From Caldimonas sp. (GTDB lineage Bacteria; Pseudomonadota; Gammaproteobacteria; Burkholderiales; Burkholderiaceae_C): a stretch of 64,000 bases of DNA. The stretch spans positions 181,409 through 245,408 of the forward strand of contig CBDFFO010000010.1 in NCBI GenBank assembly GCA_965246805.1, in the 5' to 3' direction. The notes beneath the pieces are model-generated. The model was not told where the DNA came from, made no database searches, and saw nothing but the letters and a program-made list of their open reading frames with translations. Of this stretch, positions 3,035-33,644 are shown in pieces (position 1 is the stretch's first letter; every line of letters starts with the position of its first letter). Made by a program: the position numbers and the translations under genes.

Positions 3035-4309
3035 ATGAAGCCGCCGACCCTGATCCGCGCTGCGCCGCCGCTCGGACCCGACGAGAAAGTGACGGGCCTC
3101 GTGCTCACGGGCGGGGGCGCGCGCGCGGCCTACCAGGTCGGCGTGCTGCGCGCGGTCGCGAAGATTCGCCGCCAGTGCGGCATCAAGGAAGGCAACCCGT
3201 TCCCGGTGATCGCCGGTACCTCAGCGGGCGCCATCAATGCCGCCGCGCTCGCGACCCGCTCCGACGATTTCGGCGGCGCCGTCGCCGGGCTTACCGAGGT
3301 GTGGCAAAACTTTCGCGCGGAGCAGGTCTATCGATCCGATTCCATCGGCGTGATTCGCACCGGCGCGCGCTGGTTGACGATGATGTCGATCGGCTGGGCG
3401 CTCGCCCGCTTTCGTCGCGCGAGGCCGCGGTCGCTGCTCGACAACTCGCCGCTCGAGGGACTGCTGAGCAAGCTGGTCGACTTCGATCGACTGCACCCAT
3501 TGATGCAGGCCGGCCACCTGCACGCGCTCGCGGTCACCGCGTCGAGCTACGGTTCGGGTCTTCACGTGACCTTCTACGACGCCATCGACGACATCGTGCC
3601 GTGGACGCGCTCGCAACGCATCGCGGTGCGCGACTCGATCGACACGCCGCACCTGCTCGCTTCGTCGGCGATCCCGTTCGTGTTCCCGGCCGTGGCGCTC
3701 GATGTCGGCGATGGCCGCATCGAGTATTGCGGCGACGGCTCGATGCGCCAGGCCGCGCCGATCTCGCCGGCCGTGCACCTCGGCGCTGAACGCATCCTGG
3801 TGATCGGCGCCGGCCGGATGCACGAGCCACCGGGAGAGCGCCCGTCGACGAGCGAATACCCGAACCTCGCGCAGATCGCCGGTCATGCGCTCGCCAACAT
3901 CTTTCTCGATGCGCTCGCGGTCGACGTCGAGCGCCTGCAGCGCATCAATGCCACGCTGTCGTTGCTGCCACCCGAGATCCGCGCGAAAACCGCGCTCAAG
4001 CCGATCGAGGTGCTGCTGATCGCGCCGAGCCAGCGCATCGACGACATCGCCGCCAAGCACCTGGGCAGCATGCCGCTGCCGATTCGTGCGCTGCTTCGAG
4101 GCCTGGGCGTGAAGGGCAAGGGCGACGACGCCCGCGGCGCCGCGCTCGCGAGCTACCTGCTGTTCGAAGCGCCGTACACCCGCGAACTCATCGCACTCGG
4201 CCAGCGCGACACGCTCGCGCGGCGCGACGAGGTGCTCGCCTTCTTCGATTGGGTGCCGGAAAAGGACAGGCCGCTGGAAACCGTGGCTGGTGATCTCAGC
4301 GGCCTGTGA
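3035..4309 (+). CDS. Patatin-like phospholipase family protein
   Basis: GGGARAAYQVG glycine-rich loop, GTSAG nucleophile motif, DGS motif. Start taken at MKPPTL (ATG 3035). Confidence 0.9.
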   Translation: MKPPTLIRAAPPLGPDEKVTGLVLTGGGARAAYQVGVLRAVAKIRRQCGIKEGNPFPVIAGTSAGAINAAALATRSDDFGGAVAGLTEVWQNFRAEQVYRSDSIGVIRTGARWLTMMSIGWALARFRRARPRSLLDNSPLEGLLSKLVDFDRLHPLMQAGHLHALAVTASSYGSGLHVTFYDAIDDIVPWTRSQRIAVRDSIDTPHLLASSAIPFVFPAVALDVGDGRIEYCGDGSMRQAAPISPAVHLGAERILVIGAGRMHEPPGERPSTSEYPNLAQIAGHALANIFLDALAVDVERLQRINATLSLLPPEIRAKTALKPIEVLLIAPSQRIDDIAAKHLGSMPLPIRALLRGLGVKGKGDDARGAALASYLLFEAPYTRELIALGQRDTLARRDEVLAFFDWVPEKDRPLETVAGDLSGL

Positions 4310-5034: not shown

Positions 5035-6033
5035 TCAGACCGGCGGCTGGGCCGCCAGCCAATCGACGTAGCGCGCCACGCCGTTCTCGACCGAGACGAA
5101 GTCGTGCCCGCATCCCGCGGCGCGCAGCCGCGACAGATCGGCTTCGGTGAAGCTCTGGTACTTGCCGACCAGGGCAGCCGGGAACTCGATGTACTCGATC
5201 GCGCCGAGCCGGACCAGGTCGCCGAGCGACATCGCGTGCTCGCCGTCGAGCGCGCGTTGCGCGTTGACGACCGCGACGGCCACGTCGTTGAACGGCTGCG
5301 CGCGGCCGCTGCCGAGATTGAAGATGCCGCTCGCTTCCGGGTGCTCGAGGAACCAGAGGTTCACCGCGACGATGTCGTCGACGTGGATGAAGTCGCGCGA
5401 CTGCTGGCCTGCCTCGTAGCCGCCGTACGGGCCGAACAGCCTGACGTTGCCGCTGTCGCGCAGCTGATTGAAGTGGTGGAACGCGACCGACGCCATGCGG
5501 CCCTTGTGCTGCTCGTGTGGCCCGTACACATTGAAGTAGCGAAAGCCGGCGACCTGCGCGGTGCAGGCCGGCAGCATGCGGCGCACCACGTTGTCGAACA
5601 GCAGCTTCGAGTAGCCGTAGACGTTGAGTGGTTGCTCGAACGCCGGCTCTTCGCGAAAGGTCGAGCTGCCGCCATAGGTGGCTGCCGACGACGCGTAGAG
5701 CAGGCGTGTGCCGCGCGCTTGGGCCGCGTCGAGCAAGTCTTTCGAGCAGCGGTAGTTGGTGTCGAGCATGTAGCGACCGTCGTGCTCCATCGTGTCGGAG
5801 CACGCCCCCTCGTGAAAGACCGCGTCGACCCGGCCGAATTCGCCGCGCGCGAAGCGTCCGTAGAACTCGCTGCGGTCGAAGTAATCGACGAGGCGCGCGC
5901 CCACGAGGTTGCGGTATTTGGTGCCGTCGGTGAGGTCGTCGACCGCGATGATGTCGTCGATGCCGATCGCGTTCAGCCCGTGCACGAGGTTGCTGCCGAT
6001 CATGCCGGCCGCGCCGGTGACGACGACCTTCAC
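5035..6033 (-). CDS. rfaD: ADP-L-glycero-D-manno-heptose 6-epimerase
   Basis: [13 protein letters not shown]-binding motif, [28 protein letters not shown] start overlaps the rfaE1 stop. Confidence 0.96.
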
Positions 6034-7001
6034 GGCGTGCCCCTCATCGACGTGGCCAGCTCTTCGTAGCCCACACTCGCGGTGCCGAACTTGCCGACCA
6101 CGATGCCACCGGCGTGGTTGGCGATCGGCATCGCTGCGCGCAGTTCGAGGCCGCTCGCGAGCATCACCGCGAGCGTCGCGATCACGGTGTCGCCGGCGCC
6201 CGTCACGTCGAACACCTCGCGGGCCTGCGCCGGCACGTGAACCTGGCCACTGGCGTCGAAGATGGACATGCCTTCCTCGGCGCGCGTCAACACGATGGCG
6301 CCAATGGTGTTGGCATGGCGCAGCGTCGAGATGCGCTCGACCAGCTGTTCCGGCGAGCTCCACGCGCCGACCACCTGCGCCAGCTCGGCACGGTTCGGCG
6401 TGATGACGCTGGCGCCCGCGTAGCGCGAGTAGTCGCTGCCCTTCGGATCGACGAGCACCGGCTTGCCCGCCGCGAGCGCGAGTTCGATCATCCGCGGGAT
6501 GTGCGTCAGGCCGCCCTTGCCGTAATCGGAGAACAGCACCACATCGTGCTCGGGCAGCGCGCGTTCGTAGTCGGCGAGCATGCTGCTCAGCACCTCGTGG
6601 TCCGGCTGGTTCTCGAAGTCGACGCGGATCAGCTGCTGGGCGCGTCCGATCACGCGCAGCTTGACGATCGTGAACAGCTGCGGGTCGCTGCCCAGCAAGG
6701 CCGTGACGCCTTGCTGCTCGAGCAGCTCGCGCAGGCGCCGCGCGGCATCGTCGGCGCCCACCACCGTGAGCAGCGTCGCCTTCGCGCCGAGCGCCTTCAC
6801 GTTGAGCGCGACGTTGGCCGCGCCACCGAGGCGTTCTTCTTCGCGCTCGACCCGTACCACGGGCACCGGGGCTTCCGGCGAGATCCGGTCGACGGCGCCG
6901 AACCAGTAGCGGTCGAGCATCGCGTCGCCGACCACCAGCACGTTGGCCTCGGCGATGGTCTGGCGCGCGGGCAGCGTCGTGAGCGGCAGCGTCGGCAGCA
7001 T
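6030..7001 (-). CDS. rfaE1: D-glycero-beta-D-manno-heptose-7-phosphate kinase (PfkB family)
   Basis: [40 protein letters not shown] motifs. Confidence 0.95.
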
Positions 7002-20771: not shown

Positions 20772-21145
20772 GGGGCTGACCTGGCTTCGACGAGGGTTCG
20801 GAGTTGGAACAGTGCACGCCGAGCACCAGTTCGCTCGTAAATCCACTGGAAACAAAGTAACTGCGAACGATCAAACGTACGCTCTCGCCGCTTAAAACCG
20901 GTGAGCTTCGCAACAGTTGGCCGATGGGCTGGGTCTGAGGGGTAAAACCCGAAAGACTGCGAAGTCATACACATGGGCTCGTCCGGCGTCGCGTCATTCG
21001 GCGTCGGATCAAATCAAGTGAATCGGGATGACGGTAGCGTGCTGCTGCGCGACCGGCCTCCTTAAAACCAAATCAGTCAGCTAAGCGTGTAGATCTGCCT
21101 GACGATGGCTTTCGGACGGGGGTTCGATTCCCCCCAGCTCCACCA
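20772..21145 (+). ncRNA. ssrA: tmRNA (ssrA), tag peptide ANDQTYALAA at 20863-20895
   Basis: 5' GGGGCTGACCTGGCTTCGAC, 3' GGTTCGATTCCCCCCAGCTCCACCA, internal tag ORF ending ALAA-TAA. Confidence 0.97.
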
Positions 21146-21176
21146 GACTAGGTTCCGAACGGGAGCGCAAGTGACC

Positions 21177-21212
21177 AAGGCCCTAAGCAAATCAACGGCT
21201 TAGGGCCTTTTT
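21177..21212 (+). terminator. Rho-independent terminator downstream of ssrA
   Basis: AAGGCCCTAAGC-N9-GCTTAGGGCCTT followed by TTT. Confidence 0.85.
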
Positions 21213-21227
21213 CACGTCCACATGCGA

Positions 21228-21317
21228 CCGGGTAACAGCGCTTGCATCTTGCTGCGGACCGGGTAACATACCGGGTAACTCATCTCATGCGGCCTTAGGC
21301 GGCAGAAAGTTACCCGG
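21228..21317. repeat. Left-end integrase arm-type repeats CCGGGTAAC
   Basis: Direct copies at 21228, 21259 and 21271; inverted copy GTTACCCGG at 21309-21317. Confidence 0.75.
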
Positions 21318-22615
21318 TGGCAGCGACAGACATCTTGAGCGACAAGGCAGTCAAGGCGGCGCTGAAAGCGGCCGTCGTGGGTGGCAAGACGCGCAAGATC
21401 AGCGACGGCGGCGGCCTCTATCTGGAAACCCGCCCGACCGGCGCGGGCTGGTGGCGCCTTCGGTACTGGATCGACAGCCGCGAGGGGATGCTCAGCCTGG
21501 GCACCTACCCGGCGGTCACGCTCGCCGAGGCCCGCGAGCGCCGTGACGAGGCGAAGCGCCTGATCGCCTCGGGCGTCAACCCGAGCGACGCACGGAAAGA
21601 CGACAAGGCTCGCCGCGATCACCAGCGCAAGACTTTCGCGATGGCCGAGGCAGGCTTGGCCGTCACCGGCTCATTCGAACAGGTCGCCCGCGATTGGCTC
21701 ACGACAGTTCATGAGTCGAAGGTGAGCGCGGGACATGCCGAGCGCACCCGGATCCGCTTGGAGCAAGACGTTTTCCCGTGGCTCGGCAAGCGACCCATCA
21801 ACGAGATCGAGGCGCCGGAGCTGCTGGCCTGCCTTCGCCGTGTAGAAGCTCGCGGCGCCATCGAGACTGCCCACCGCATCAAGGACGCCTGCGGCCAGGT
21901 GTTCCGCTACGGCATCGCGACTGGTGCGTGCCAGAGAAACCCCGCCGCCGACCTACGCGATGCGCTCCGCCCGGTGGAGACACGGCACCTCGCTGCGATC
22001 GTCGAGCCGGTGAAGGCGGGCGCATTGCTGCGCGACATGGTCGGCTACGAGGGCCACCCTGTAACGCGCGTGGCGCTGGCGCTGTCGGCGCTGCTGCTGC
22101 TGCGCCCGGGAGAGCTGCGGAACATGGAGTGGGCTTGGGTGAACTTCGACTCATCGACCCTGACCGTCCCTGCGGAGGTCATGAAGCGTTCGAAGGCCGA
22201 CAAGGCCGGCGGCCCGCCGCACCTCGTGCCCCTCGCACCGCAGGCCGTGGCGCTGCTGCGCGATCTCCAGCCGCTAACCGGGCATGGCCGGTACGTCTTC
22301 CCGTCGCTGCTCACCGGCGAGCGCTGCATGAGCGAGAACACGGTGAGGAGTGCTCTGCGCCGCATGGGTTACAGCAACGACGACATGACCGCACATGGCT
22401 TCCGCGCAATGGCCCGCACCATGATCGCGGAACGATTGAACGTGGGGCCTGAAGTCATCGAGGCGCAGCTAGCGCACACGGTATCTGACTCGCTTGGCCG
22501 GGCCTACAACCGCACGCAGTACCTCGACCAACGCCGCGAAATGATGTCGACCTGGGCTGACTATCTCGACCGCCTACGCGCTGGCGCGCAAGTGGTGCCG
22601 CTCATGGTCGCCTGA
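21317..22615 (+). CDS. int: P4-like tyrosine integrase with arm-DNA-binding domain
   Basis: N-terminal DGGGLYL...W.LRY...LSLGTYP.VTLAEAR; catalytic R (LLRPGE), HGFR, QLAH, AYN. Confidence 0.95.
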   Translation: MAATDILSDKAVKAALKAAVVGGKTRKISDGGGLYLETRPTGAGWWRLRYWIDSREGMLSLGTYPAVTLAEARERRDEAKRLIASGVNPSDARKDDKARRDHQRKTFAMAEAGLAVTGSFEQVARDWLTTVHESKVSAGHAERTRIRLEQDVFPWLGKRPINEIEAPELLACLRRVEARGAIETAHRIKDACGQVFRYGIATGACQRNPAADLRDALRPVETRHLAAIVEPVKAGALLRDMVGYEGHPVTRVALALSALLLLRPGELRNMEWAWVNFDSSTLTVPAEVMKRSKADKAGGPPHLVPLAPQAVALLRDLQPLTGHGRYVFPSLLTGERCMSENTVRSALRRMGYSNDDMTAHGFRAMARTMIAERLNVGPEVIEAQLAHTVSDSLGRAYNRTQYLDQRREMMSTWADYLDRLRAGAQVVPLMVA

Positions 22616-24377: not shown

Positions 24378-24510
24378 CGGTAGCGGGGGGAGAAGCCGGG
24401 CGTAATTCGCGTGCGTTTGCCCCCCCGGTGAAAAGCATCGTTTATCGGCCGTGAAAGGTGACCCACCAGCGGCCACCCACCGGCCAAAGTCACTTCCATC
24501 GCAACTGCGC

Positions 24511-24849
24511 ATGGAGCCTCAAGTGAACCCAAGACGAGAACAGAACCCGGTCGTTCGGCCGGTGCCGACCCAGCTAGCAGACGTTGCGCTGCTCGACATC
24601 AACGACCTGCGAGCCGCGGTCAGGATGTCCGCAAGCTGGGTGCTGGAGGAAGTTCGGTCGGGTCGATTCCCGGCACCGGTGATTCGGCAGTCACGCTGCA
24701 CACGGTGGCGCGCCTCGGATGTCCGCGATTACCTGATCAAACGTGCGCAGACCGTCGACATAGCTGCGGCCGAGACGGTGACCGCTCGGGCGAAGAAGGC
24801 CAGCGCAGCGGCGCAGGTCAAGCGTGTCGCGGCAGCGGCCGAGCAGTGA
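24511..24849 (+). CDS. alpA: AlpA-family transcriptional regulator / excisionase
   Basis: DINDLRAAVRMSASWVLEEVRSGRFPAPV...RWRASDV. Start uncertain (24451 or 24511). Confidence 0.8.
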   Translation: MEPQVNPRREQNPVVRPVPTQLADVALLDINDLRAAVRMSASWVLEEVRSGRFPAPVIRQSRCTRWRASDVRDYLIKRAQTVDIAAAETVTARAKKASAAAQVKRVAAAAEQ

Positions 24850-25194: not shown

Positions 25195-25622
25195 GCGGCG
25201 CAATCGATTTGCTGCTGTCAAGGCTGCCCGACCACAAGCCCACCGGCCGAGATCGCTGGCGTAGCGGATGCCCTGTCTGCGGCGGAAGCAGCAAGTCCGC
25301 GCTATCGATCGGCATCGGGGACACCGGAGCGGTCCTGGTCACTTGCTTCAAAGGGGGCTGCGGTCCGGACGAGATCGCGGGAGCGGTTGGACTTGTGATC
25401 GAGGATCTATTCCCGCCTCGTGAGGCCGCTGGTCGACCATTGGCCCGTCGCCGAATGATCAGCGACAGACAGGCGCTCGATCTGATGCACGAGGAATCCA
25501 ACTTGGTCTTCGTCGCCGCCGCCAACATCGGCAACGGTATCGAGCTCACCGATGTTGACCGTGCGCGCCTGCTGCAGGCCGCTGCGCGGATCGCTTACTT
25601 GCGCGAAGAGGTCATGTCTTGA
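25191..25622 (+). CDS. Primase-type zinc-binding domain protein
   Basis: WRSGCPVCGG...LSIG...VLVTCFKGGCG, typical of primase Zn-finger N-termini in satellites. Confidence 0.75.
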   Translation: MSGAIDLLLSRLPDHKPTGRDRWRSGCPVCGGSSKSALSIGIGDTGAVLVTCFKGGCGPDEIAGAVGLVIEDLFPPREAAGRPLARRRMISDRQALDLMHEESNLVFVAAANIGNGIELTDVDRARLLQAAARIAYLREEVMS

Positions 25623-26914
25623 GCCGCTACGCAAATGGTTCTGGCGCCGCTGCCGTTGATGGCGCGATCAAGGTCCGTGGTGGTGCGGCTCCGGTAGTTG
25701 CGCGACACCAAGGGGAGCCCACTGGGGAAGCGATCGCCGTTCGGCTGGTTCGAGGCGACACAGTGACGCTGGAGCCCGTGCGCTGGTTATGGCCGGGCTT
25801 CCTGCCCGCGGCCATGCTGACGATCTTGGGCGGCGCTCCGGGCTGTGGCAAGACCACCATCGCGCTGTCGCTCGCGGCCACCGTCAGCAGCGCCGGCACC
25901 TGGCCCGGTGGTGTGACTCGCGCAACGGCGGGCGACGTGCTCATCTGGAGCGGCGAGGATGCGCACCCGGTACTCGCCGCCCGTCTAGCAGCTATGGGCG
26001 CCGACATGAAGCGCGTTCATTTCATCGACGGCATTTCCGGCAGCGAGGGCGAGGCGTTCGACCCCGGCCGAGATATGCCCCTTCTTGAAGCGGCGGCTGT
26101 GCGGCTCGTGGCGCCACGGCTGCTGATCCTGGACCCCATCGTGTCGGCGGTCTCAGGCGACTCGCACAAAGGCGCCGAGGTGCGCAGATCGCTCCAGCCA
26201 GTGGTGGCCCTCGCCCAGCGGCTCGGGTGCGCCGTGGTGGGCGTTACGCACTTCAGCAAGGGCACAGCGGGCCGTGATCCAGCGGAACGCATCACCGGAA
26301 GCATCGCGTTCGCCGCCCTTGCGCGGCTGGTGCTCGTGGCCGCCAAGGTGCAAGCCGATGAGGGCGGAGAGCCGAAGCGCGTGCTGGTGCGGGCGAAGTC
26401 CAACATCGGGCCGGACGACGGCGGGTTCGCCTATTCGCTCGATCGGGTGATAGTGGCTCCCGAAGTCGAAGGGCAGCGAGTTCTGTGGCTGGAGGCGCTG
26501 GAGGGTTCGGCGCGTGATGTGCTCGCCGAAGCGGAAGCCAATCCCGAGGGCAACGAGGAATCGTCTGCGCTGGACGAGGCGATCGAGTTTCTCGAGTCCG
26601 AGCTGGCGTATGGGGCGAAGCCGGTGATGGAGATTTACCGGGAGGCGCGGAGGTCTGGGCACAGTGATCGAACTCTCAAGCGAGCCAAATTGCAGCTCAG
26701 CGTCGCATCACTCAAGGAAAAAGCGGGCTGGGTGTGGCATCTGCCGTCCAAGGGTGCCAAGGGTGCCAACAGTGCCAAGGAAACCAGGCATGAAGCACAC
26801 GGCCCCCTTGCCGAAAACTTCAAGGGTGCCAGCGAATCACCCCTTGGAACACTTGGCCCCCTTGGCCCCCTTGGCCCCCTTGGCCCCCTTGCCGATGATG
26901 GCGAGGTGTTCTGA
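25619..26914 (+). CDS. AAA_25/RepA-like RecA-fold replicative helicase
   Basis: EPVRWLWPG, Walker A GAPGCGKT, Walker B LLILDP, HFSKG, R..GSIAF..LAR, KSNIG. Confidence 0.88.
   Translation: MSRYANGSGAAAVDGAIKVRGGAAPVVARHQGEPTGEAIAVRLVRGDTVTLEPVRWLWPGFLPAAMLTILGGAPGCGKTTIALSLAATVSSAGTWPGGVTRATAGDVLIWSGEDAHPVLAARLAAMGADMKRVHFIDGISGSEGEAFDPGRDMPLLEAAAVRLVAPRLLILDPIVSAVSGDSHKGAEVRRSLQPVVALAQRLGCAVVGVTHFSKGTAGRDPAERITGSIAFAALARLVLVAAKVQADEGGEPKRVLVRAKSNIGPDDGGFAYSLDRVIVAPEVEGQRVLWLEALEGSARDVLAEAEANPEGNEESSALDEAIEFLESELAYGAKPVMEIYREARRSGHSDRTLKRAKLQLSVASLKEKAGWVWHLPSKGAKGANSAKETRHEAHGPLAENFKGASESPLGTLGPLGPLGPLGPLADDGEVF
26748..26893. repeat. Inverted arrays of 9-bp repeats (putative iterons/ori)
   Basis: About 4 copies of CCAAGGGTG on + (26748-26780) facing 6 copies of CCCCTTGGC (26840-26893; reverse complement GCCAAGGGG). 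Confidence 0.7.
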
Positions 26915-27387
26915 TGGGAGCGCCGGACCTGTTGACGTACCTACGCGATGCGGGGTTTGCGGTCGCGCTGGTCGGCGGAGGAATTCGAGTGGCGCCGGCC
27001 GCCGCACTGACCGACACCGATCGAGAGGCGATCAAGGCACACCGTGGTGAACTGCTGGCCCTGCTGGCGCCCGTCCGAAAGGAACCCATTGCGCTTTCAG
27101 AACCCTGGACGGACAGCGACGCCGCGAAATTTGTCGACCGACGCGACCGGCTGACCCGATGGGGGTGGCCGCTTGCCCAATCTGAGGCAATCGCTGATCG
27201 TCTTGTACGTCGCGATCAGGAAGGTGATGACCGCCGGATGTGTGTCGAGTGCAGCCATCTCGGCGAACGTGGGCGATGCCTGGCCGCAGCGGCGGGGCGT
27301 TTGAGCGGCACCGACCGACGACACGAACCCGTGCCCGACATCCTTCAGCGCTGCGAAGGCTTCGGCCTAAGGAAGGGACTCACATGA
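26914..27387 (+). CDS. Hypothetical protein typical of satellite replication modules
   Basis: TGATG coupling to the helicase; DRRMCVECSHL...RC Cys cluster. Confidence 0.65.
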   Translation: MGAPDLLTYLRDAGFAVALVGGGIRVAPAAALTDTDREAIKAHRGELLALLAPVRKEPIALSEPWTDSDAAKFVDRRDRLTRWGWPLAQSEAIADRLVRRDQEGDDRRMCVECSHLGERGRCLAAAAGRLSGTDRRHEPVPDILQRCEGFGLRKGLT

Positions 27388-27681: not shown

Positions 27682-27730
27682 AGGTCGCCCGTCGACATTG
27701 CTCCGCATTCACCCACGTTGCGGAGCGCAT

Positions 27731-27931
27731 ATGCAGACACACGAAGCCGAACCACTGCTCAAGCCCGAGCAGGTCGCGCAACGACTTGCGATCGCGGAGA
27801 GCACTCTGAACGTCTGGCGCTGTACCGGTCGTCAGCAACTTCCCTTCATCAAGCTCGGTTCGAGCGTCCGCTACCGCGCTTCGGACGTGGACGCATTTGT
27901 CGAGAGCCGTTTGCATGACGCCCGCGTCTGA
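27731..27931 (+). CDS. HTH_17/MerR-like excisionase-type DNA-binding protein
   Basis: LLKPEQVAQRLAIAESTLNVWR...LPFIKLGSSVRYRASDVDAF. Confidence 0.85.
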   Translation: MQTHEAEPLLKPEQVAQRLAIAESTLNVWRCTGRQQLPFIKLGSSVRYRASDVDAFVESRLHDARV

Positions 27932-28514
27932 GATTGGGCGCTCCGAAGACGGGCGTTCCAAAGTTGAACTCGTGACCGCTGGGGTGGACGTCGCTCCGGT
28001 CCTCTGGGCGTTGCGAGCGAATCCTGGTCTATGGACTCATGCCGAGACCGCCAAAGGTCGGGCCACTCCACGTTACGACGCGATCTGGGTCCGCTCCGCT
28101 GCCATGGGTTCGGATATCGGGACGCCAACAGAATCGAACTGGTACCCCACGGCTGACGCGGTGCCCCTGCGCGAACTGGTCTACCCCCTGATGGGCCTTG
28201 TCGGGGGCGTCCTGTTGGGGGGCGTCGTGATCCACAAGGTTCCTGCCCACACGACGACCAAGCCCCACATCGCAACAGGTCAGCAGGGCCGCTGCTTTGA
28301 CACGTTCGCGATCCAGATCGATTGCGCGCCCGGCCAGCTTCTCTGCTACGAGGACAGGCGACAGGAATCAAAGCCCGGTGACGCGTACTACTTCAACGAC
28401 TCGTATCGGCACTGGATAGAAAACCCGACGCCGTTTGACCGCATCACGGCGCTGGTCTCGATCCGGACCGAGCGCAAGGCCAACGCCGGACGACCGGCTC
28501 CGGTTTGTCACTGA
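27915..28514 (+). CDS. Aspartyl/asparaginyl beta-hydroxylase-like (2OG-Fe cupin) phage-type protein
   Basis: GVDVAPVLWAL, DAIWVR, LGGVVI.KVP...KPH, FAIQI, PGDAYYFN...HWIEN...DRIT. Confidence 0.7.
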   Translation: MTPASEIGRSEDGRSKVELVTAGVDVAPVLWALRANPGLWTHAETAKGRATPRYDAIWVRSAAMGSDIGTPTESNWYPTADAVPLRELVYPLMGLVGGVLLGGVVIHKVPAHTTTKPHIATGQQGRCFDTFAIQIDCAPGQLLCYEDRRQESKPGDAYYFNDSYRHWIENPTPFDRITALVSIRTERKANAGRPAPVCH

Positions 28515-28951
28515 TGAACATCGTGATCCACGAGAGCTTCGCCAAGCTCACGGGCATGAAGGCGACTCGGTTCGAGCGGCGCGAAAAGATCGCCCACGCT
28601 GAAACCGAGGCCAGAGCGCTGGCGGTGATGTTTCCCTTCGAGGAAACCGCCGAGCACCACTTCGCACCTGGCTTGTACGCACGCTCGCTCTTCATGCCAG
28701 CTGGCTCGACCGTCGTCGGGAAGATCCATCGGCACGCGCACATCTATGTCGTGTCGGGCCATTGCTGGATCTACAACGAGATCGACGAGCACGAGGTGAA
28801 AGGCTTTGAAGTTCGCACCGCCGTACCTGGCGAGAAGCGCTTCTGGCATGTGCTTGCTGACACATTCATCGTGGGCTTCCATCCCACGACCGAGACCGAT
28901 CTGGAAAAGATCGAAAACGACGTGATCGCTAAGACTTACGAGGTGATGTAA
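28514..28951 (+). CDS. Phage-type cupin-fold protein
   Basis: HHFAPGLYARSLFMPAGSTVVGKIHRHAH, a motif that I recall precedes ejection genes in podoviruses; TGATG coupling. Confidence 0.7.
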   Translation: MNIVIHESFAKLTGMKATRFERREKIAHAETEARALAVMFPFEETAEHHFAPGLYARSLFMPAGSTVVGKIHRHAHIYVVSGHCWIYNEIDEHEVKGFEVRTAVPGEKRFWHVLADTFIVGFHPTTETDLEKIENDVIAKTYEVM

Positions 28952-30115
28952 ATGTGGGTTGCCGTAGGAGTAGGGGCTGCCAGCACGGTGGCCGGCATGA
29001 TTGGCGCCAGCAAGGCCGCCAAAGGTCAACAGCAGGCCGCCAATCAGGCCATCGCGGCCCAGCAGGCCCAGTACCAGCAGAACCGCACCGACAACCTACC
29101 CGCGCTCGATGCCCGCAACAACTCACTGATGATGTTGCAGCAGAAGGCCGGCCAGTACAGCGCAGCCCCGACCGCCGACCAAGTGATGGCGACCCCGGGT
29201 TACCAGTTCGGGCTGAACCAGGGCAACAACAACATCGAGAACAGCGCCGCATCCCGAGGCGGCCTGTACTCGGGTGCGGCCGGCAAAGCACTGACCCGCT
29301 ATGGCACTGACTACGCAACGACGAAGTATCAGAACGCCTTCGACAACCTTCAGACCTCGCAGACCAACGACTTCAACCACTATCTGAACATCGGCAACCT
29401 GGGCCAAGCCGGCGCTAGCAGCATCGCCAACGCTGGCCAGAACATGGTCAACGCGAACAATCAGACCTTGATGAGCAATGCGAACTCTCAAGGCGCCGCC
29501 AACATCGCCCAGAGCAACCTCATTGCTGGCGGGCTGAACCAGTTCGGGAGCTGGGCCAAGTCCCCCAACGGGCAAGACGCACTTGGTGGTCTCGGCGATC
29601 GCATCGGCGGGTGGTTCGCACCTTCCAACAGCAACGGCAGCGTGATCTCCAACTCGCCGACCTACATCGACCCCAGTAGCAAGTACGCGCAGAACGGATC
29701 GGACTTCGGCTGGAATCCGATCAAGCGTGCCGATGGTGGACCCGTGCGAGCTGAGCCAGTAGTCGGATCGCGGTCCCCTGTCCGGACGGGTGGAGGCGGT
29801 GGCTTCTCCCCCAATGCCCTGCTCGCGCTGGTGATGGCTCATCAGCTCCCGCAAACTCAAACAGCACCAGGCGGCGACTACCTCATGAACCCCGGTCAGA
29901 TCGTTGATCAGCGGATGCGGCAGGCCGGTGCATACGCCATGGGCGGCGCAGTGCATGGCCCTGGCGGTCCTCGGGACGACCTCATCCCGGCGCAGTTGTC
30001 ATCGGGCGAACACGTTTTCGATACCGCGTCGGTCGACGCCGTCGGTGGTGGCGACAACGAGGTCGGGCAGAACAGGCTGAACAAGCTTCGCGAGATCCTC
30101 AAAAACCGCCGCTGA
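28952..30115 (+). CDS. Podovirus-type DNA ejection/pilot (P22 gp7-like DNA transfer) protein with C-terminal extension
   Basis: Hydrophobic Gly/Ala N-terminus, Gln/Asn-rich body, PGYQFGLNQG...SAASRGGLYSGAAGKAL.RYG.DYA, C-terminal GGAVHGPGGPRDD.IPA.LS.GE.V. Confidence 0.7.
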   Translation: MWVAVGVGAASTVAGMIGASKAAKGQQQAANQAIAAQQAQYQQNRTDNLPALDARNNSLMMLQQKAGQYSAAPTADQVMATPGYQFGLNQGNNNIENSAASRGGLYSGAAGKALTRYGTDYATTKYQNAFDNLQTSQTNDFNHYLNIGNLGQAGASSIANAGQNMVNANNQTLMSNANSQGAANIAQSNLIAGGLNQFGSWAKSPNGQDALGGLGDRIGGWFAPSNSNGSVISNSPTYIDPSSKYAQNGSDFGWNPIKRADGGPVRAEPVVGSRSPVRTGGGGGFSPNALLALVMAHQLPQTQTAPGGDYLMNPGQIVDQRMRQAGAYAMGGAVHGPGGPRDDLIPAQLSSGEHVFDTASVDAVGGGDNEVGQNRLNKLREILKNRR

Positions 30116-30117
30116 AC

Positions 30118-30291
30118 ATGCCGACGATCGAAACGAGGCTCGCCAGGCTGGAGGCGCCGCACATCCAAACCGGGCCGGTGTTGATCATGGTGAGCGACGA
30201 ACGCACTCCAGAGCAGGAGCAGGAGATCAGGTCCGCCCGGGAAGCAGGTAGACCGATCGTCTTCGTGACGGCCATCGATTGGGATCTGTGA
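30118..30291 (+). CDS. Microprotein 1 (57 aa, MPTIETRLARLE...)
   Basis: Translated by hand (below the ORF-track cutoff); starts 2 nt after the previous stop. Confidence 0.6.
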   Translation: MPTIETRLARLEAPHIQTGPVLIMVSDERTPEQEQEIRSAREAGRPIVFVTAIDWDL

Positions 30292-30360: not shown

Positions 30361-30777
30361 ATGAAAGAAGCCGGTCGGTTTCAGCCAGGCCAGAGTGGCA
30401 ATCCCAAAGGGCGACCACCGGGCGCCGGTCAGCTGGGCACCTTGCGCGCGTCGATCGTGGCACACGTCCCCGAGATCGTGGCCAGGCTGGTTGACGCTGC
30501 GAAGGCCGGTGATGTTGGCGCTGCACGCCTGCTCCTAGAGCGCGTGTTGCCCGCTGTGAAGCCGATCGAGCAGGAAGTCGTGATCGCGTTGCCTACGGGC
30601 TCCCTGACCGATCAAGGTCGAGCCGTGCTCGCCGCCGCTGGCGCTGGCGAACTGGCAACGGGACAAGCCGCCCAGCTGCTGACCGGCCTGAGTTCGCTCG
30701 CCAAGCTGGTGGAGACGGACGAACTGGCAGCACGCATCAAGGCACTGGAGACCCGCGATGGCAACGTTAAGAGCTAG
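30361..30777 (+). CDS. DUF5681-type terminase-small-subunit-like protein
   Basis: GRFQPGQSGNPKGRP motif, AARLLLERVLP; RBS GAGGA upstream. Confidence 0.75.
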   Translation: MKEAGRFQPGQSGNPKGRPPGAGQLGTLRASIVAHVPEIVARLVDAAKAGDVGAARLLLERVLPAVKPIEQEVVIALPTGSLTDQGRAVLAAAGAGELATGQAAQLLTGLSSLAKLVETDELAARIKALETRDGNVKS

Positions 30778-31199: not shown

Positions 31200-31818
31200 C
31201 TACTTTGTGATCAAACCTGTTTTTGGAAATTCCATAGGCCCAGTTTTCGGGTCGAAGATGCCGTAAGTGACTACCTTTGCTTTCTCGAACTGGTAGAAGG
31301 TGTTGTACTTGTCGAAGCTCAAGATTTTCTGCAGCCCGTCTTGCGTTGTCGAGACGTGCGATGGCTCACCAAGAACCTGGATTACGTACCCAATTTCCAT
31401 GTCCTTTTTAAAGTCCTGCAAATAGGGGTGAACCGTTTCTTCGTCGAGCGCCATATATTCGACGTACCTGACGTTGTCCCCTCTAAACCGAACAACGATG
31501 AAGGACTTGGTGTCGGCAGACCTATAGATCCATTCGTCCTTGTTATCTTCCGGAATTATCGACGGTTCGCCTTTGGCAAACCTCACGTCAGACCGGCTCG
31601 CGTGGAGCGGAACGTCGAAGAAAGTGATCTGAGGTCTGGGCCGCCCAGCGTACTGGACATACCCCCAAGTGCCAAGGCCTCCGAAAGCCGCGACTAAGAG
31701 CAGCGCGAGGATCATCCTTGCCAAGTCGGCTCCAGTTCCAACGATCCTTGGTCACCGCATACAGCATCACGATGGCCAAGACGACCGATGACATGAAGAT
31801 TCCAGAGCCTATGGTCAT
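31200..31818 (-). pseudogene. Membrane-anchored hypothetical protein split by a frameshift near 31722
   Basis: Frame A MTIGSGIFMSSVVLAIVMLYAVTKDRWNWSR continues naturally into frame B (L)ARMILALLLVAAFGGLGTWGYVQY...; one extra base at the junction. Confidence 0.6.
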
Positions 31819-31950
31819 TTGGGGATCCCGTTCACGATGGGCGAGCTACCTGTGCGCACGAATATCCGTTCGCCCCATACGTCGCGTTTGTGATTCAGAT
31901 GGCCGCCGACAACTCGCTCTTCCCCACTGCGCGTCGTCGTGCAGGGATCA

Positions 31951-32478
31951 CTAAGAAAACCTCTTAAACAACAGACACCCTAAGACAAAGACTACGGGGG
32001 ACAGCAATAGGGCGACGCGAACTAAGTTGATCGCCAAAGCCTTTTTCGCGATCCAGTCACTGCTGTCCTTCAGGCGGTCTGTAATGTTGAGTATTTCGCC
32101 ATAGCGCACTTCGTCGATTGACCGGTGCGGTTCATCTAGAAGGTTTGCAGCCTCTTGGTATGGCGCCGGGTACTCGCGAATGAAGAATGTCTTCCAGACC
32201 AGTAGTAGTCCGAGCAACACAAAGTACCCGCAGAGAACGATCGTGCCGAACAACAGCGTGTCTAGCGTGCGTTCAAGCCCAGGCAATATGTAGACGAACG
32301 TGCCTCCCATACCGGCCAAAACATAGGTCAACGTGGTTTGAGCTTCTTTGCCCATGTTGTCTGCCGTGGTGAACTTCTCCTGCAGGTTCTTGAGGCCGTT
32401 CTCTTCCGCCCACTTGAGTCTGTCCGGCCAGCTCTCATGCCGAGTCCTCACGGTTCGATAGCTTGTCCGCTGTGCCAT
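31951..32478 (-). CDS. 3-TM membrane protein, lower GC (candidate defence effector)
   Basis: Three hydrophobic segments; ADNMGKEAQTTLTY before TM1; acidic loop before TM3. Confidence 0.7.
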   Translation of the reverse strand: MAQRTSYRTVRTRHESWPDRLKWAEENGLKNLQEKFTTADNMGKEAQTTLTYVLAGMGGTFVYILPGLERTLDTLLFGTIVLCGYFVLLGLLLVWKTFFIREYPAPYQEAANLLDEPHRSIDEVRYGEILNITDRLKDSSDWIAKKALAINLVRVALLLSPVVFVLGCLLFKRFS

Positions 32479-33263: not shown

Positions 33264-33276
33264 CTTTCCGGGTAAC
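33256..33276 (+). repeat. Right-end arm-type repeats (TTGGGTAAC, CCGGGTAAC)
   Basis: Two copies with a 12-bp period, the same period as the left pair at 21259/21271. Confidence 0.75.
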
Positions 33277-33338
33277 TGGGAAGGTGGCAAACCAGCAGAG
33301 GTAGCATCCATGCGGGTTTGCGGCCGAACTTCAAGTGA

Positions 33339-33352
33339 CCCCAGCCCACCAG
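33339..33352 (+). repeat. attR: degenerate copy of the ssrA 3' end
   Basis: CCCCAGCCCACCAG versus CCCCAGCTCCACCAG, preceded by a T-loop-like TTCAAGT. Confidence 0.75.
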
Positions 33353-33644
33353 TATTAGTGCGACGTAGGTCACCGACGTCAGGTTTTGCAAGTCAAATCG
33401 CCGACTTCGCGGCTCTTGAATTTCAAAAAGCGCTGCGTCGGCATCGACCTGAAAGTTCAGGTTGTCCATCGCCGCGAGGGTACGAGGACGGGTTGCTTGC
33501 AACGCTTCCGCCTTGTAGACAATGGACCCGCTCCAGGGGTGCTTGGTCATCGGTGGCGCGCCGTCGGGCGGCGACTCGGCGGCTGCGGCCCAGTGCAGCC
33601 TCTCAAGATTGCCAGACCTGCCGCGACCAAGCCCGCATCCGCCG

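What the first reader, a model, noticed from the sequence alone, without database searches (positions are those of the whole stretch)
28952..30115. Satellite encodes its own P22-gp7-like ejection/pilot protein with a tape-measure-like C-terminal extension
Seen: a Gln/Asn/Gly-rich protein with PGYQFGLNQG...SAASRGGLYSG...RYG.DYA, plus two C-terminal GG motifs (RADGGPV; AMGGAVHGPGGPRDDLIPAQLSSGEHV) resembling motifs I recall from tape-measure and other virion-injected proteins. Established: P22 gp7/gp16/gp20 are internal virion proteins needed for DNA delivery. Inference: an element with no other virion genes that keeps an intact ejection protein could load it into helper virions. That could alter host range, bypass injection-blocking exclusion, or poison helper particles.
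Basis: partly seen in the sequence, partly recalled or inferred. Interest (0 to 1): 0.8.

Follow-up and report, generated by a model that had tools for sequence, protein, structure and literature searches.

The report
Phage satellite carrying an ejection-protein gene
A small parasitic island next to the tmRNA gene of a Burkholderiales bacterium carries an intact, selectively maintained copy of a P22-gp7-type gene, whose product builds the first part of a short-tailed phage's DNA-injection channel; this suggests satellites can tamper with their helper phage's DNA-delivery machinery, not only its capsid and packaging.

Summary
The ORF is real (28952-30115, +, 387 aa) and every quoted motif is present. 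Residues ~9-213 belong to the P22 gp7 ejection-protein family: phrog_598 at 2.8e-29, and P22 gp7 hits the same family at 2e-95. Full-length homologues occupy the gp7 slot of P22-like podophages. AF2 gives the expected helical hairpin with a loop. The last ~90 aa share a motif with tape-measure proteins in 180 cultured-phage records.

The C-terminal extension is not a satellite invention. It is the normal form in a clade of ~38-kb environmental podophages.

The gene sits in a ~12.2-kb tmRNA-integrated, PICI-like island (int, HTH, AAA_25 rep, AlpA, DUF5681) with no capsid, portal or terminase gene. It is the last gene of a translationally coupled 3-gene block taken from a podophage virion module. 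The block is accessory: 18 sibling islands lack it. It is nevertheless under strong purifying selection (dN/dS 0.065).

It recurs in two other small islands (Methyloversatilis, Rubrivivax). The verified E. coli PICI EcCIMP1, whose helper is P22-like Kapi1, carries gp14/gp7/gp20/gp16 homologues that its authors did not interpret as ejection proteins.

The identity claims are supported. Loading into helper virions and any benefit remain untested.

The parts
20772..21145 (+). tmRNA (ssrA) gene, the integration target; its 3' end (core CCCCAGCTCCACCAG, 21132-21146) is attL
   Evidence: ARAGORN; Rfam RF00023 196 bits, full length
21228..21317 (.). four copies of CCGGGTAAC, putative integrase arm-type sites
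   Evidence: 5 matches in the window against 0.12 expected; the fifth is at the other island end, 33268-33276
21317..22615 (+). tyrosine integrase
   Evidence: Arm-DNA-bind_3, Phage_int_M and Phage_integrase domains
24451..24849 (+). HTH protein (o132), conserved in sibling islands
   Evidence: HTH_17 weak hit; found in 9 siblings
25619..26914 (+). AAA_25 (RepA/DnaB-like) replication protein, the island core gene; its 3' end holds 9-nt repeats at 26840-26891
   Evidence: PF13481 6.5e-37; 59-84% identical in 18 sibling islands
26914..27387 (+). o157, a conserved island gene of unknown function
   Evidence: present in 14 of 18 siblings
27698..27931 (+). AlpA-type (HTH_17) regulator/excisionase; first gene of the tightly coupled block
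   Evidence: PF12728 6.2e-9, phrog_66
27897..28514 (+). c205, a cupin-like protein; homologue of the gene directly upstream of gp7-like genes in some podophages (probable true start ATG 27915)
   Evidence: 38% identity, E 6e-40 to L003 9451-9996; weak Cupin_2 and Asp_Arg_Hydrox hits; overlaps the end of alpA
28505..28951 (+). c148, a cupin-like protein; the usual upstream partner of gp7-like genes in podophages and prophages (probable true start ATG 28514, sharing TGATG with the c205 stop)
   Evidence: phrog_12032 1.8e-25; E 1e-33 to L005 and hits in 8 phage or prophage loci just upstream of gp7-like genes; dN/dS 0.11; unrelated to P22 gp14
28952..30115 (+). gp7-like ejection protein, extended subtype (387 aa): the finding
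   Evidence: phrog_598 2.8e-29; P22 gp7 hits the same PHROG at 2e-95; hhalign to P22 gp7 E 6e-5; synteny; dN/dS 0.065
29000..29557 (+). helical-hairpin core (aa 17-202); the conserved loop PGYQFGL...GGLYSG...YGxDYATTKY (aa ~69-125, nt ~29156-29326) aligns with the P22 gp7 'fingertip' that docks into the gp10 tail hub
   Evidence: AF2 helices 17-68 and 108-202, pLDDT 75-93; hhalign register; gp7* structure described in bioRxiv 10.64898/2026.09.03.749273
29903..30112 (+). C-terminal motif shared with tape-measure proteins (GGxVxGPGGPRDDxIPAxLSxGEHV plus a terminal helix)
   Evidence: phrog_6090, phrog_25241 and phrog_5448 tape-measure hits; tblastn of the last 90 aa hits annotated tape-measure proteins in 180 phage records; pLDDT 86-90 for aa 355-387
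30118..30291 (+). o57, a small ORF 2 nt after the gp7-like stop; L012 has a comparably placed small ORF
30361..30777 (+). DUF5681 protein, a hallmark gene of a very large family of small integrative islands; function unknown
   Evidence: PF18932 9.6e-12; 316+ genome loci, mostly compact int-rep islands; 2597+ homologues; confident helical AF2 model with no PDB match
31200..32478 (-). two minus-strand, lower-GC cargo genes (174 aa lipoprotein-like; 175 aa membrane protein)
33268..33352 (.). right island end: fifth CCGGGTAAC arm site (33268-33276) and a decayed copy of the tmRNA 3' end (core CCCCAGCCCACCAG, 33339-33352), taken as attR

Best explanation
The ORF encodes a genuine member of the P22 gp7 / T7 gp14-type family of ejection proteins. 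It belongs to an extended (~370-390 aa) subtype that is the normal form in a clade of ~38-kb P22-like podophages of Betaproteobacteria. A ~12-kb tmRNA-integrated, PICI-like satellite captured the gene together with two small cupin-like genes that precede gp7 in those phages. The block landed in the satellite's accessory slot, between its replication genes and its DUF5681 gene, and now forms a translationally coupled operon that starts with alpA. Shown: family identity, phage origin, island context, accessory status, purifying selection, and recurrence in other satellites. Inferred mechanism: when a P22-like helper is induced or infects, the alpA-led operon is switched on. The satellite's gp7-like protein is then taken into helper-built procapsids; P22 ejection proteins enter at procapsid assembly in a scaffold-dependent way. 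It replaces or mixes with the helper's own gp7. On the next infection it leaves first, docks through its conserved loop into the helper's gp10-type tail hub, and forms the hub-proximal, outer-membrane part of the DNA channel, which the helper's gp20/gp16 analogues extend. The likely benefit is at the entry step, such as compatibility with recipient envelopes or escape from an entry block. That benefit is not shown.
For: Identity: phrog_598 2.8e-29 over 197 of 240 profile positions. P22 gp7 hits the same PHROG at 2e-95. A 45%-identical homologue hits Pfam P22_gp7 (PF25688) at 1.3e-5. hhalign of the family profile against P22 gp7 gives E 6e-5 over 143 columns. AF2 gives a helical hairpin plus loop at pLDDT 75-93, matching the published gp7* architecture. 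Phage origin: full-length homologues lie between Phage_stabilise (gp10) and two ~450-600-aa genes, one of them phrog_26400 'DNA ejection protein', on P22_portal/P22_CoatProtein contigs. Both upstream island genes match the phage gene directly upstream of gp7. Island: tmRNA, int, arm repeats at both ends, decayed attR, AAA_25 rep, AlpA, and no portal, coat or terminase anywhere in the 64 kb. 18 sibling islands share the core. One sibling has a small terminase without a large one. Function retained: tight gene coupling; all invariant family residues kept; dN/dS 0.065 for gp7L and 0.11 for c148 against a copy in another metagenome that is linked to the island's alpA. Recurrence: the Methyloversatilis island runs int-primase-...-gp7-like-small ORF-DUF5681. 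The Rubrivivax island has gp7-like, 483-aa and gp16-like genes. The verified PICI EcCIMP1 (helper: P22-like Kapi1) carries gp14, gp7 (55% identical to P22 gp7), gp20 and gp16 homologues after its primase. That junction is in 237 of 5426 complete E. coli genomes.
Against: There is no direct evidence of expression, of presence in particles, or of any helper. No P22-like prophage lies in the window, and the source metagenome holds no second close copy. The window protein itself does not reach Pfam's P22_gp7 model. Fold searches were uninformative. The module is rare in this island family: 0 of 18 AAA_25 siblings and 1 of 80 DUF5681 loci have it. It is therefore not needed for the satellite life cycle. 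A satellite-made gp7 would enter helper and satellite particles alike, so a satellite-specific advantage is not obvious. No satellite packaging function has been identified here; DUF5681 has no TerS-like fold match.
Confidence: 0.5

Rival explanations
1. The module is an interference or defence device. The satellite makes a gp7-like protein, with its cupin-like partners, either to co-assemble with and spoil the helper's ejection apparatus or to block channel formation by incoming P22-like phages. This would protect the host population and/or favour the satellite.
For: The gene sits in a variable accessory slot. In other satellites such slots often hold anti-phage genes; this is established knowledge for P4-like elements and PICIs. 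The Rubrivivax relative carries a BstA-like abortive-infection gene next to its ejection-protein cassette. EcCIMP1, which has the ejection-protein cassette, adds superinfection immunity against its helper by an unknown mechanism and has no known defence system. Purifying selection fits this reading as well.
Against: There are no PADLOC hits. The protein keeps every invariant residue of the phage family, including the hub-docking loop. That is what a working ejection protein would look like rather than a dominant-negative one. Poisoned particles would also carry the satellite. The gene is co-oriented and coupled with alpA, which in PICIs drives helper-induced rather than lysogenic expression; this last point is inferred from the family, not shown here.
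Confidence: 0.22
2. The block is a passenger. A fragment of a podophage virion operon was picked up by illegitimate or homologous recombination with a helper and has no role for the island.
For: It is accessory and rare in the island family. Only part of the ejection cassette is present, with no gp20 or gp16 analogues. GC content resembles the rest of the island, so the date of capture cannot be judged.
Against: dN/dS is 0.065 and 0.11 across roughly 30% synonymous divergence between two island-linked copies. The ORFs are intact and translationally coupled. Independent islands with different replication modules also carry gp7-like genes in the same relative position.
Confidence: 0.1
3. The element is not a satellite but a decayed P22-like prophage, and the gp7-like block is what remains of its virion genes.
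For: The element has an integrase at tmRNA and phage-derived genes. The attR copy of the tmRNA end is decayed, so the element could be old or immobile.
Against: All genes are intact. The int-HTH-AAA_25-o157 core is shared at 59-84% identity by 18 islands of similar size, none of which has virion genes. One sibling has a small terminase without a large one. The gp7 block lies in the middle of the island's operon rather than in a remnant late region. The podophages that carry the homologues show no similarity to the island's other genes.
Confidence: 0.08

Closest known systems
Bacteriophage P22 gp7 (ejection protein; PHROG 598, Pfam PF25688); functional analogue of T7 gp14
   Same: Same PHROG family. 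Same position in the virion operon of the phages that carry the homologues. Same predicted helical hairpin with a conserved loop, which in P22 docks into the gp10 hub.
   Different: 387 aa against 181-240 aa for the described gp7/gp14-type proteins (PMC8954989). It adds a ~170-aa Gly-rich, mostly disordered extension that ends in a motif shared with tape-measure proteins. It scores below Pfam's threshold. Here it is encoded by a small island rather than a phage.
EcCIMP1, a PICI of E. coli MP1 mobilised by the P22-like phage Kapi1 (Pick, Stadel and Raivio, ISME J 2025, PMC11773190)
   Same: A small integrase/AlpA/replication island without capsid or lysis genes that carries P22-type ejection-protein genes downstream of its replication gene. 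Its helper dependence was shown experimentally.
   Different: EcCIMP1 has the whole gp14-gp7-gp20-gp16 cassette in the classical short-gp7 form. The window island has only gp7 (extended form) plus two cupin-like partners unrelated to gp14. The islands share no backbone: TOPRIM/DUF927 primase and tRNA-Thr there, AAA_25, DUF5681 and tmRNA here. The authors regarded these genes as possible packaging factors, not ejection proteins.
PICI-type satellites of Proteobacteria (int, alpA, pri-rep, packaging-redirection genes)
   Same: Size (~12 kb), integration at a tRNA-like gene, integrase, AlpA-type regulator, replication gene, one-directional operon, and absence of structural and lysis genes. A sibling carries a small terminase.
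   Different: No recognised TerS, Rpp or capsid-size genes in this copy. It has DUF5681 instead, of unknown role. Helper and induction are unknown.
Tail tape-measure proteins of siphophages
   Same: They share a ~50-90-aa motif (GGxxxGPGGxxxDxIPAxLSxGExV). Both protein classes leave the virion ahead of the DNA.
   Different: Only the motif is shared. There is no long coiled-coil ruler, no tail-gene context, and the helper type is a podophage.

Membership tests
P22 gp7-type ejection protein (PHROG 598 / Pfam PF25688) | Profile match to the family model | tested here: met
   phrog_598 E 2.8e-29, residues 9-213 on profile positions 17-213 of 240. P22 gp7 hits the same model at 2e-95.
P22 gp7-type ejection protein (PHROG 598 / Pfam PF25688) | Reaches Pfam P22_gp7 gathering score (28 bits) | tested here: not met
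   No Pfam hit at E<=0.1 for the window protein. Homologue P0014 scores 25.6 bits, E 1.3e-5. hhalign of the family profile against P22 gp7 gives probability 65%, E 6e-5. It is a distant subfamily.
P22 gp7-type ejection protein (PHROG 598 / Pfam PF25688) | Gene position in phages: after the gp10-type hub gene and small genes, before gp20- and gp16-type genes | tested here: met
   Homologues on P22_portal/P22_CoatProtein/Phage_stabilise contigs and in Rhodoferax phage P26218. The second gene downstream (L003 12881-14623) hits phrog_26400 'DNA ejection protein'.
P22 gp7-type ejection protein (PHROG 598 / Pfam PF25688) | Two-helix hairpin with a hub-docking loop | tested here: met
   AF2 helices 17-68 and 108-202 with loop 69-107, pLDDT 75-93. 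This agrees with the description of gp7*. No solved gp7 chain was available for superposition.
P22 gp7-type ejection protein (PHROG 598 / Pfam PF25688) | Size about 180-240 aa | tested here: not met
   387 aa. The extension is conserved in 370-390-aa phage homologues; size range from PMC8954989.
P22 gp7-type ejection protein (PHROG 598 / Pfam PF25688) | Present in virions and ejected on infection | not testable with these tools
   Requires particle proteomics.
PICI-type phage satellite | Integrase next to an att site in a tRNA-like gene, with a bounded island of ~10-15 kb | tested here: met
   tmRNA, int, arm repeats at both ends and a decayed attR give ~12.2 kb.
PICI-type phage satellite | AlpA-type regulator and own replication gene | tested here: met
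   HTH_17 6.2e-9; AAA_25 6.5e-37.
PICI-type phage satellite | No capsid, portal, large terminase, tail or lysis genes | tested here: met
   Pfam and PHROG scans of the island genes. tblastn of podophage ORFs finds only the 3-gene block in the window.
PICI-type phage satellite | Gene that redirects helper packaging (TerS, Rpp or similar) | tested here: inconclusive
   None recognised in this copy. DUF5681 has no informative fold or family match. Sibling L028 has TerS, phrog_309 3.5e-44.
PICI-type phage satellite | Helper-dependent excision, replication and transfer | not testable with these tools
   No helper identified. Shown experimentally only for EcCIMP1.
Tail tape-measure protein | Long helical ruler encoded between tail chaperone and distal tail genes | tested here: not met
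   Only residues ~318-387 match tape-measure profiles. The context is a podophage ejection module.
P22 gp14 (PHROG 651 / DUF2824) for the upstream genes | Sequence or profile similarity to gp14 | tested here: not met
   BLASTP E 0.58. gp14 is phrog_651, whereas c148 is phrog_12032/24280. Only the gene position is shared.

The most novel reading that the evidence does not exclude
Satellites of P22-like podophages practise 'ejectosome piracy'. They supply their own ejection proteins, which replace the helper's in the particles that carry the satellite. This re-specifies the DNA-entry step, for example entry into helper lysogens or other cells that block injection, or entry through a different envelope. 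The window element, with gp7 alone plus two alternative partner genes, would be a minimal version tuned to the hub/outer-membrane step and possibly to two helper lineages.
Probability: 0.3. Interest if true: 0.8.

Novelty: new variant of a known kind. Interest (0 to 1): 0.62.

Why it matters
Known satellite tricks act on helper capsid size, packaging specificity, late transcription and, more recently, tails. Acting on the DNA-delivery channel would be a further layer. It bears on who can receive satellite-borne genes and on how injection-blocking exclusion systems are evaded. The data here show this is not a one-off. Ejection-protein genes sit in unrelated small islands of Burkholderiales and Rhodocyclales. 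They also sit in an experimentally verified E. coli PICI whose cassette junction occurs in ~4% of complete E. coli genomes, where they had been read as possible packaging genes. The extended gp7 subtype also links podophage ejection proteins and siphophage tape-measure proteins through a shared motif of unknown function.

Tried and rejected
- PDB sequence searches with the protein and with P22 gp7 found no relevant solved chain.
- Foldseek of the AF2 model gave only generic helical hairpins, best E 0.15.
- Foldseek of the DUF5681 model found nothing (best E 1.4), so a TerS-like fold is not supported.
- NCBIfam and PADLOC gave no hits for the module or other accessory genes.
- A single-protein scan of genome contigs found no relatives.
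- tblastn of DUF5681 against cultured phages gave no match.
- I considered the idea that c148 or c205 equals P22 gp14. It is rejected on sequence and PHROG family, and the two are not detectably related to each other by BLASTP.
- A search for a helper prophage in the window found none.
- A search for a second copy of the module in the source metagenomes found only 38-nt motif matches.
- I considered whether ejection-protein genes are a core feature of DUF5681 islands. This is rejected: 1 of 80 loci has them.
- The promoter and terminator scan of the island was no better than shuffled sequence.
- Literature searches for satellite-encoded ejection proteins found no explicit treatment. The EcCIMP1 paper gives only a passing remark.
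Full report
**Observation.** The translation contains every quoted motif. It is a real gene.
- It has 317 database homologues at E<=1e-3, many of them full-length proteins of 366-399 aa.
- It retains all 20 invariant columns of a 30-member family alignment.

**What the protein is.**
- Residues 9-213 match PHROG 598 ('DNA ejection') at 2.8e-29. Authentic P22 gp7, fetched from NC_002371, matches the same PHROG at 2e-95.
- The window protein does not reach Pfam's P22_gp7 model. A 45%-identical homologue does, weakly (PF25688, 25.6 bits, E 1.3e-5).
- A profile of the family aligns to P22 gp7 over 143 columns (hhalign E 6e-5, probability 65%).
- Gene order settles the question. In Rhodoferax phage P26218, in phage CBW1004C-Prop1, and on metagenomic contigs with P22_portal, P22_CoatProtein and Phage_stabilise (gp10) genes, the homologue lies after the hub gene and a few small genes. 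It lies before two genes of ~380-600 aa (the ~380-aa one is cut at its contig end), and where tested (L003) the second matches a 'DNA ejection protein' PHROG. This is the P22 order 10-26-14-7-20-16.
- AF2 with the family alignment predicts helix 17-68, loop 69-107 and helix 108-202 at pLDDT 75-93. A 2026 preprint describes gp7* as a dodecamer of helical hairpins whose 'fingertip' (residues 90-126) wedges into the gp10 tail hub.
- In the hhalign register, the family's most conserved block (PGYQFGLxQG...GGLYSGAAGKAL) falls on that fingertip.
- No gp7 chain is in the PDB copy, and Foldseek returned nothing significant.

**The C-terminal half.**
- Residues ~203-355 are Gly/Asn/Ser-rich and predicted disordered. 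The last ~35 residues are confident.
- Residues 318-368 hit three tape-measure PHROGs.
- The last 90 aa alone find annotated tape-measure proteins in 180 cultured-phage records: Arthrobacter, Mycobacterium, Gordonia, Burkholderia, Caulobacter and other phages.
- The extension is not special to this element. Homologues of 366-399 aa with the same ADGGPV and GPGGPRDDxIPAxLSxGEHV blocks are the gp7 of many podophage contigs of ~31-40 kb.
- A review puts gp7/gp14-type proteins at 181-240 aa. This is therefore an undescribed extended subtype of the family.

**The element.**
- A complete tmRNA gene (20772-21145) is followed by a tyrosine integrase.
- The motif CCGGGTAAC occurs four times next to int and once at 33268, against 0.12 expected.
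- A decayed ~45-nt copy of the tmRNA 3' end follows at ~33310-33355. The island is therefore ~12.2 kb.
- Its genes, all rightward, are: int, two unknowns, an HTH protein, o201, an AAA_25 replication protein, o157, o93, an AlpA-type HTH_17 protein, c205, c148, the gp7-like gene, o57, DUF5681 and two small ORFs. Then come two leftward lower-GC cargo genes and o172.
- No portal, coat, terminase or lysis gene occurs anywhere in the 64-kb window.
- Eighteen sibling islands found through the AAA_25 protein share the int/HTH/AAA_25/o157 core. They come from Ideonella, Rhizobacter, Roseateles, Rubrivivax, Inhella and other Burkholderiales, and sit at tmRNA or tRNA-Leu where a tRNA scan was run.
- One sibling has a small terminase subunit (phrog_309, 3.5e-44) right after o157. 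Others have a RuvC-like resolvase followed by DUF5681.
- DUF5681 marks a very large set of compact int-plus-replication islands. At least 316 genome loci and 2597+ proteins were found. Its function stays unknown.
- Together this is the architecture of a PICI-type satellite. Helper dependence cannot be tested here.

**The gene's place in the element.**
- It is the last gene of a three-gene block of podophage origin.
- c205 is 38% identical (E 6e-40) to the gene directly upstream of gp7 in one phage contig. c148 matches (E 1e-33, 4e-19 and weaker) the gene directly upstream of gp7 in eight other phage or prophage loci.
- Both are weakly cupin-like. Neither is related to P22 gp14, and they are not detectably related to each other. 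Phages carry one or the other at that position; the island has both.
- The genes are tightly coupled. The c205 start overlaps the end of alpA. The c205 stop and c148 start share TGATG. The c148 TAA is followed at once by the ATG of the gp7-like gene, and o57 starts 2 nt after its stop.
- The block is accessory. None of the 18 siblings has it, and in siblings DUF5681 follows o157 within 0.1-1.7 kb.
- Among the 80 best DUF5681 loci, only the Rubrivivax locus has a gp7-like gene.

**Is it maintained?**
- The island comes from a metagenome: run X1 holds it at 100%.
- A different study's run (X3) holds a relative at roughly 82-90% nucleotide identity. One contig links o93-alpA to c148 and the start of the gp7-like gene. 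Other contigs cover most of the rest.
- I applied the listed substitutions to the window sequence and counted by Nei-Gojobori. The gp7-like gene has 52 synonymous and 13 non-synonymous differences over 291 codons (dN/dS 0.065). c148 has dN/dS 0.11.
- Caveats: differences near contig ends are not listed; short compensated-indel stretches were excluded; and the middle and C-terminal contigs are not physically linked to the island in X3.

**Recurrence and precedent.**
- A Methyloversatilis isolate has a ~9-kb island: int, HTH, primase, a small gene, a gp7-like gene (phrog_598, 8e-29), a small ORF and DUF5681, followed by tRNA-Ser and a chromosomal symporter gene.
- A Rubrivivax MAG has a sibling island with DUF5681 (68% identical), a BstA-like gene, and then gp7-like, 483-aa and gp16-like genes. 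A second island follows in tandem.
- EcCIMP1 is a PICI shown experimentally to be excised and transferred only with the P22-like phage Kapi1. The literature search surfaced it because its authors noted genes 'similar to DNA transfer proteins' and to DUF2824/phrog_651 downstream of the primase, and proposed a packaging role.
- I fetched the element. It encodes homologues of P22 gp14 (E 7e-7), gp7 (55% identity, E 1.6e-51), gp20 (E 4e-14) and gp16 (E 1e-15), in that order.
- The primase-gp14-gp7 junction is present in 237 of 5426 complete E. coli genomes.
- I found no paper that interprets satellite genes as ejection proteins.

**Mechanism.**
- Established for P22: gp7, gp20 and gp16 enter the procapsid during assembly, in a scaffold-dependent and portal-independent way. 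On infection gp7* leaves first, docks on the gp10 hub and forms the channel's first segment. gp20 and gp16 then extend it.
- Inferred here: the satellite's protein is made from the alpA-led operon during helper growth. It is incorporated into helper-built procapsids in place of or beside the helper's gp7, and it does the same job in the next cell.
- The strict conservation of the hub-docking loop across the family would allow it to work with a range of helpers.
- Its advantage to the satellite is unknown. The anti-exclusion idea is attractive because helper lysogens are the recipients most useful to a satellite. However, P22 SieA escape maps to gp20 and gp16, and gp7 is thought to track the conserved hub rather than the host envelope.
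- The main rival is an interference or defence role. This is suggested by the accessory slot, by the BstA neighbour in Rubrivivax, and by EcCIMP1's unexplained superinfection immunity.
- Neutral hitch-hiking and 'decayed prophage' are made unlikely by the selection signal, by the recurrence, and by the shared virion-gene-free backbone.

**Verdict.**
- The extension is a phage-clade trait and not a satellite trait. The gene is accessory and arrives with partner genes.
- The functional consequences are open.
- The case is a new variant of something that exists, uninterpreted, in a published PICI. It points to an under-appreciated class of satellite cargo with a ready experimental system.

Noticed in passing
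window 26840-26891: A 9-nt tandem repeat (CCCCTTGGC, 4-5 copies) lies inside the 3' end of the AAA_25 replication gene, where it encodes (GPL)n. It could also serve as iterons or an origin for the island.
   Followed up: partly
window 21052-21654: ARAGORN's second, permuted 'tmRNA*' call overlaps the integrase gene. Rfam finds only the tmRNA at 20772-21145, so the second call is probably a false positive.
   Followed up: yes
window 31200-32478 (- strand): Two leftward genes with lower GC (0.59-0.60) than their surroundings: a 174-aa lipoprotein-like protein (weak BamE hit) and a 175-aa membrane protein. They have no family or defence-model hits and are probably island cargo.
   Followed up: partly
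window 27897-28951: The island carries both alternative types of the small cupin-like gene that precedes gp7 in podophages (c205 type and c148 type). The phages examined have one or the other directly upstream of gp7.
   Followed up: partly
L018 1-20594 (Rubrivivax MAG, also L050): Two related islands lie in tandem. The first has an exact duplication of a RusA/PDDEXK-like gene (2103-2543 = 3306-3746), a BstA-like KilA-N gene (5763-6581), and a gp7-like / 483-aa / gp16-like cassette upstream of the second island's integrase.
   Followed up: partly
L028 4417-4995: A sibling island (AAA_25 60% identical) carries a small terminase subunit (phrog_309, 3.5e-44) right after o157, with no large terminase nearby. 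In L025 and L029 a RuvC-like resolvase occupies that position before DUF5681.
   Followed up: partly
L123 (E. coli MP1, NZ_CP139039 3570480-3575648): The published PICI EcCIMP1 encodes a complete gp14/gp7/gp20/gp16-type cassette, although it was described as lacking structural genes. The primase-gp14-gp7 junction occurs in 237 of 5426 complete E. coli genomes.
   Followed up: yes
window 30033-30070: The 38 nt that encode IPAQLSSGEHV attract unrelated, much deeper contigs (up to ~90x) in the source metagenomes. The motif is therefore conserved even at DNA level among other phages of that community.
   Followed up: no
L043-L122: DUF5681 genes mark at least 316 genome loci across Beta-, Gamma- and Alphaproteobacteria, including Pseudomonas and methanotrophs. 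They mostly lie in compact integrase-plus-replication islands. This looks like a very large, apparently unnamed family of satellite-like elements.
   Followed up: partly
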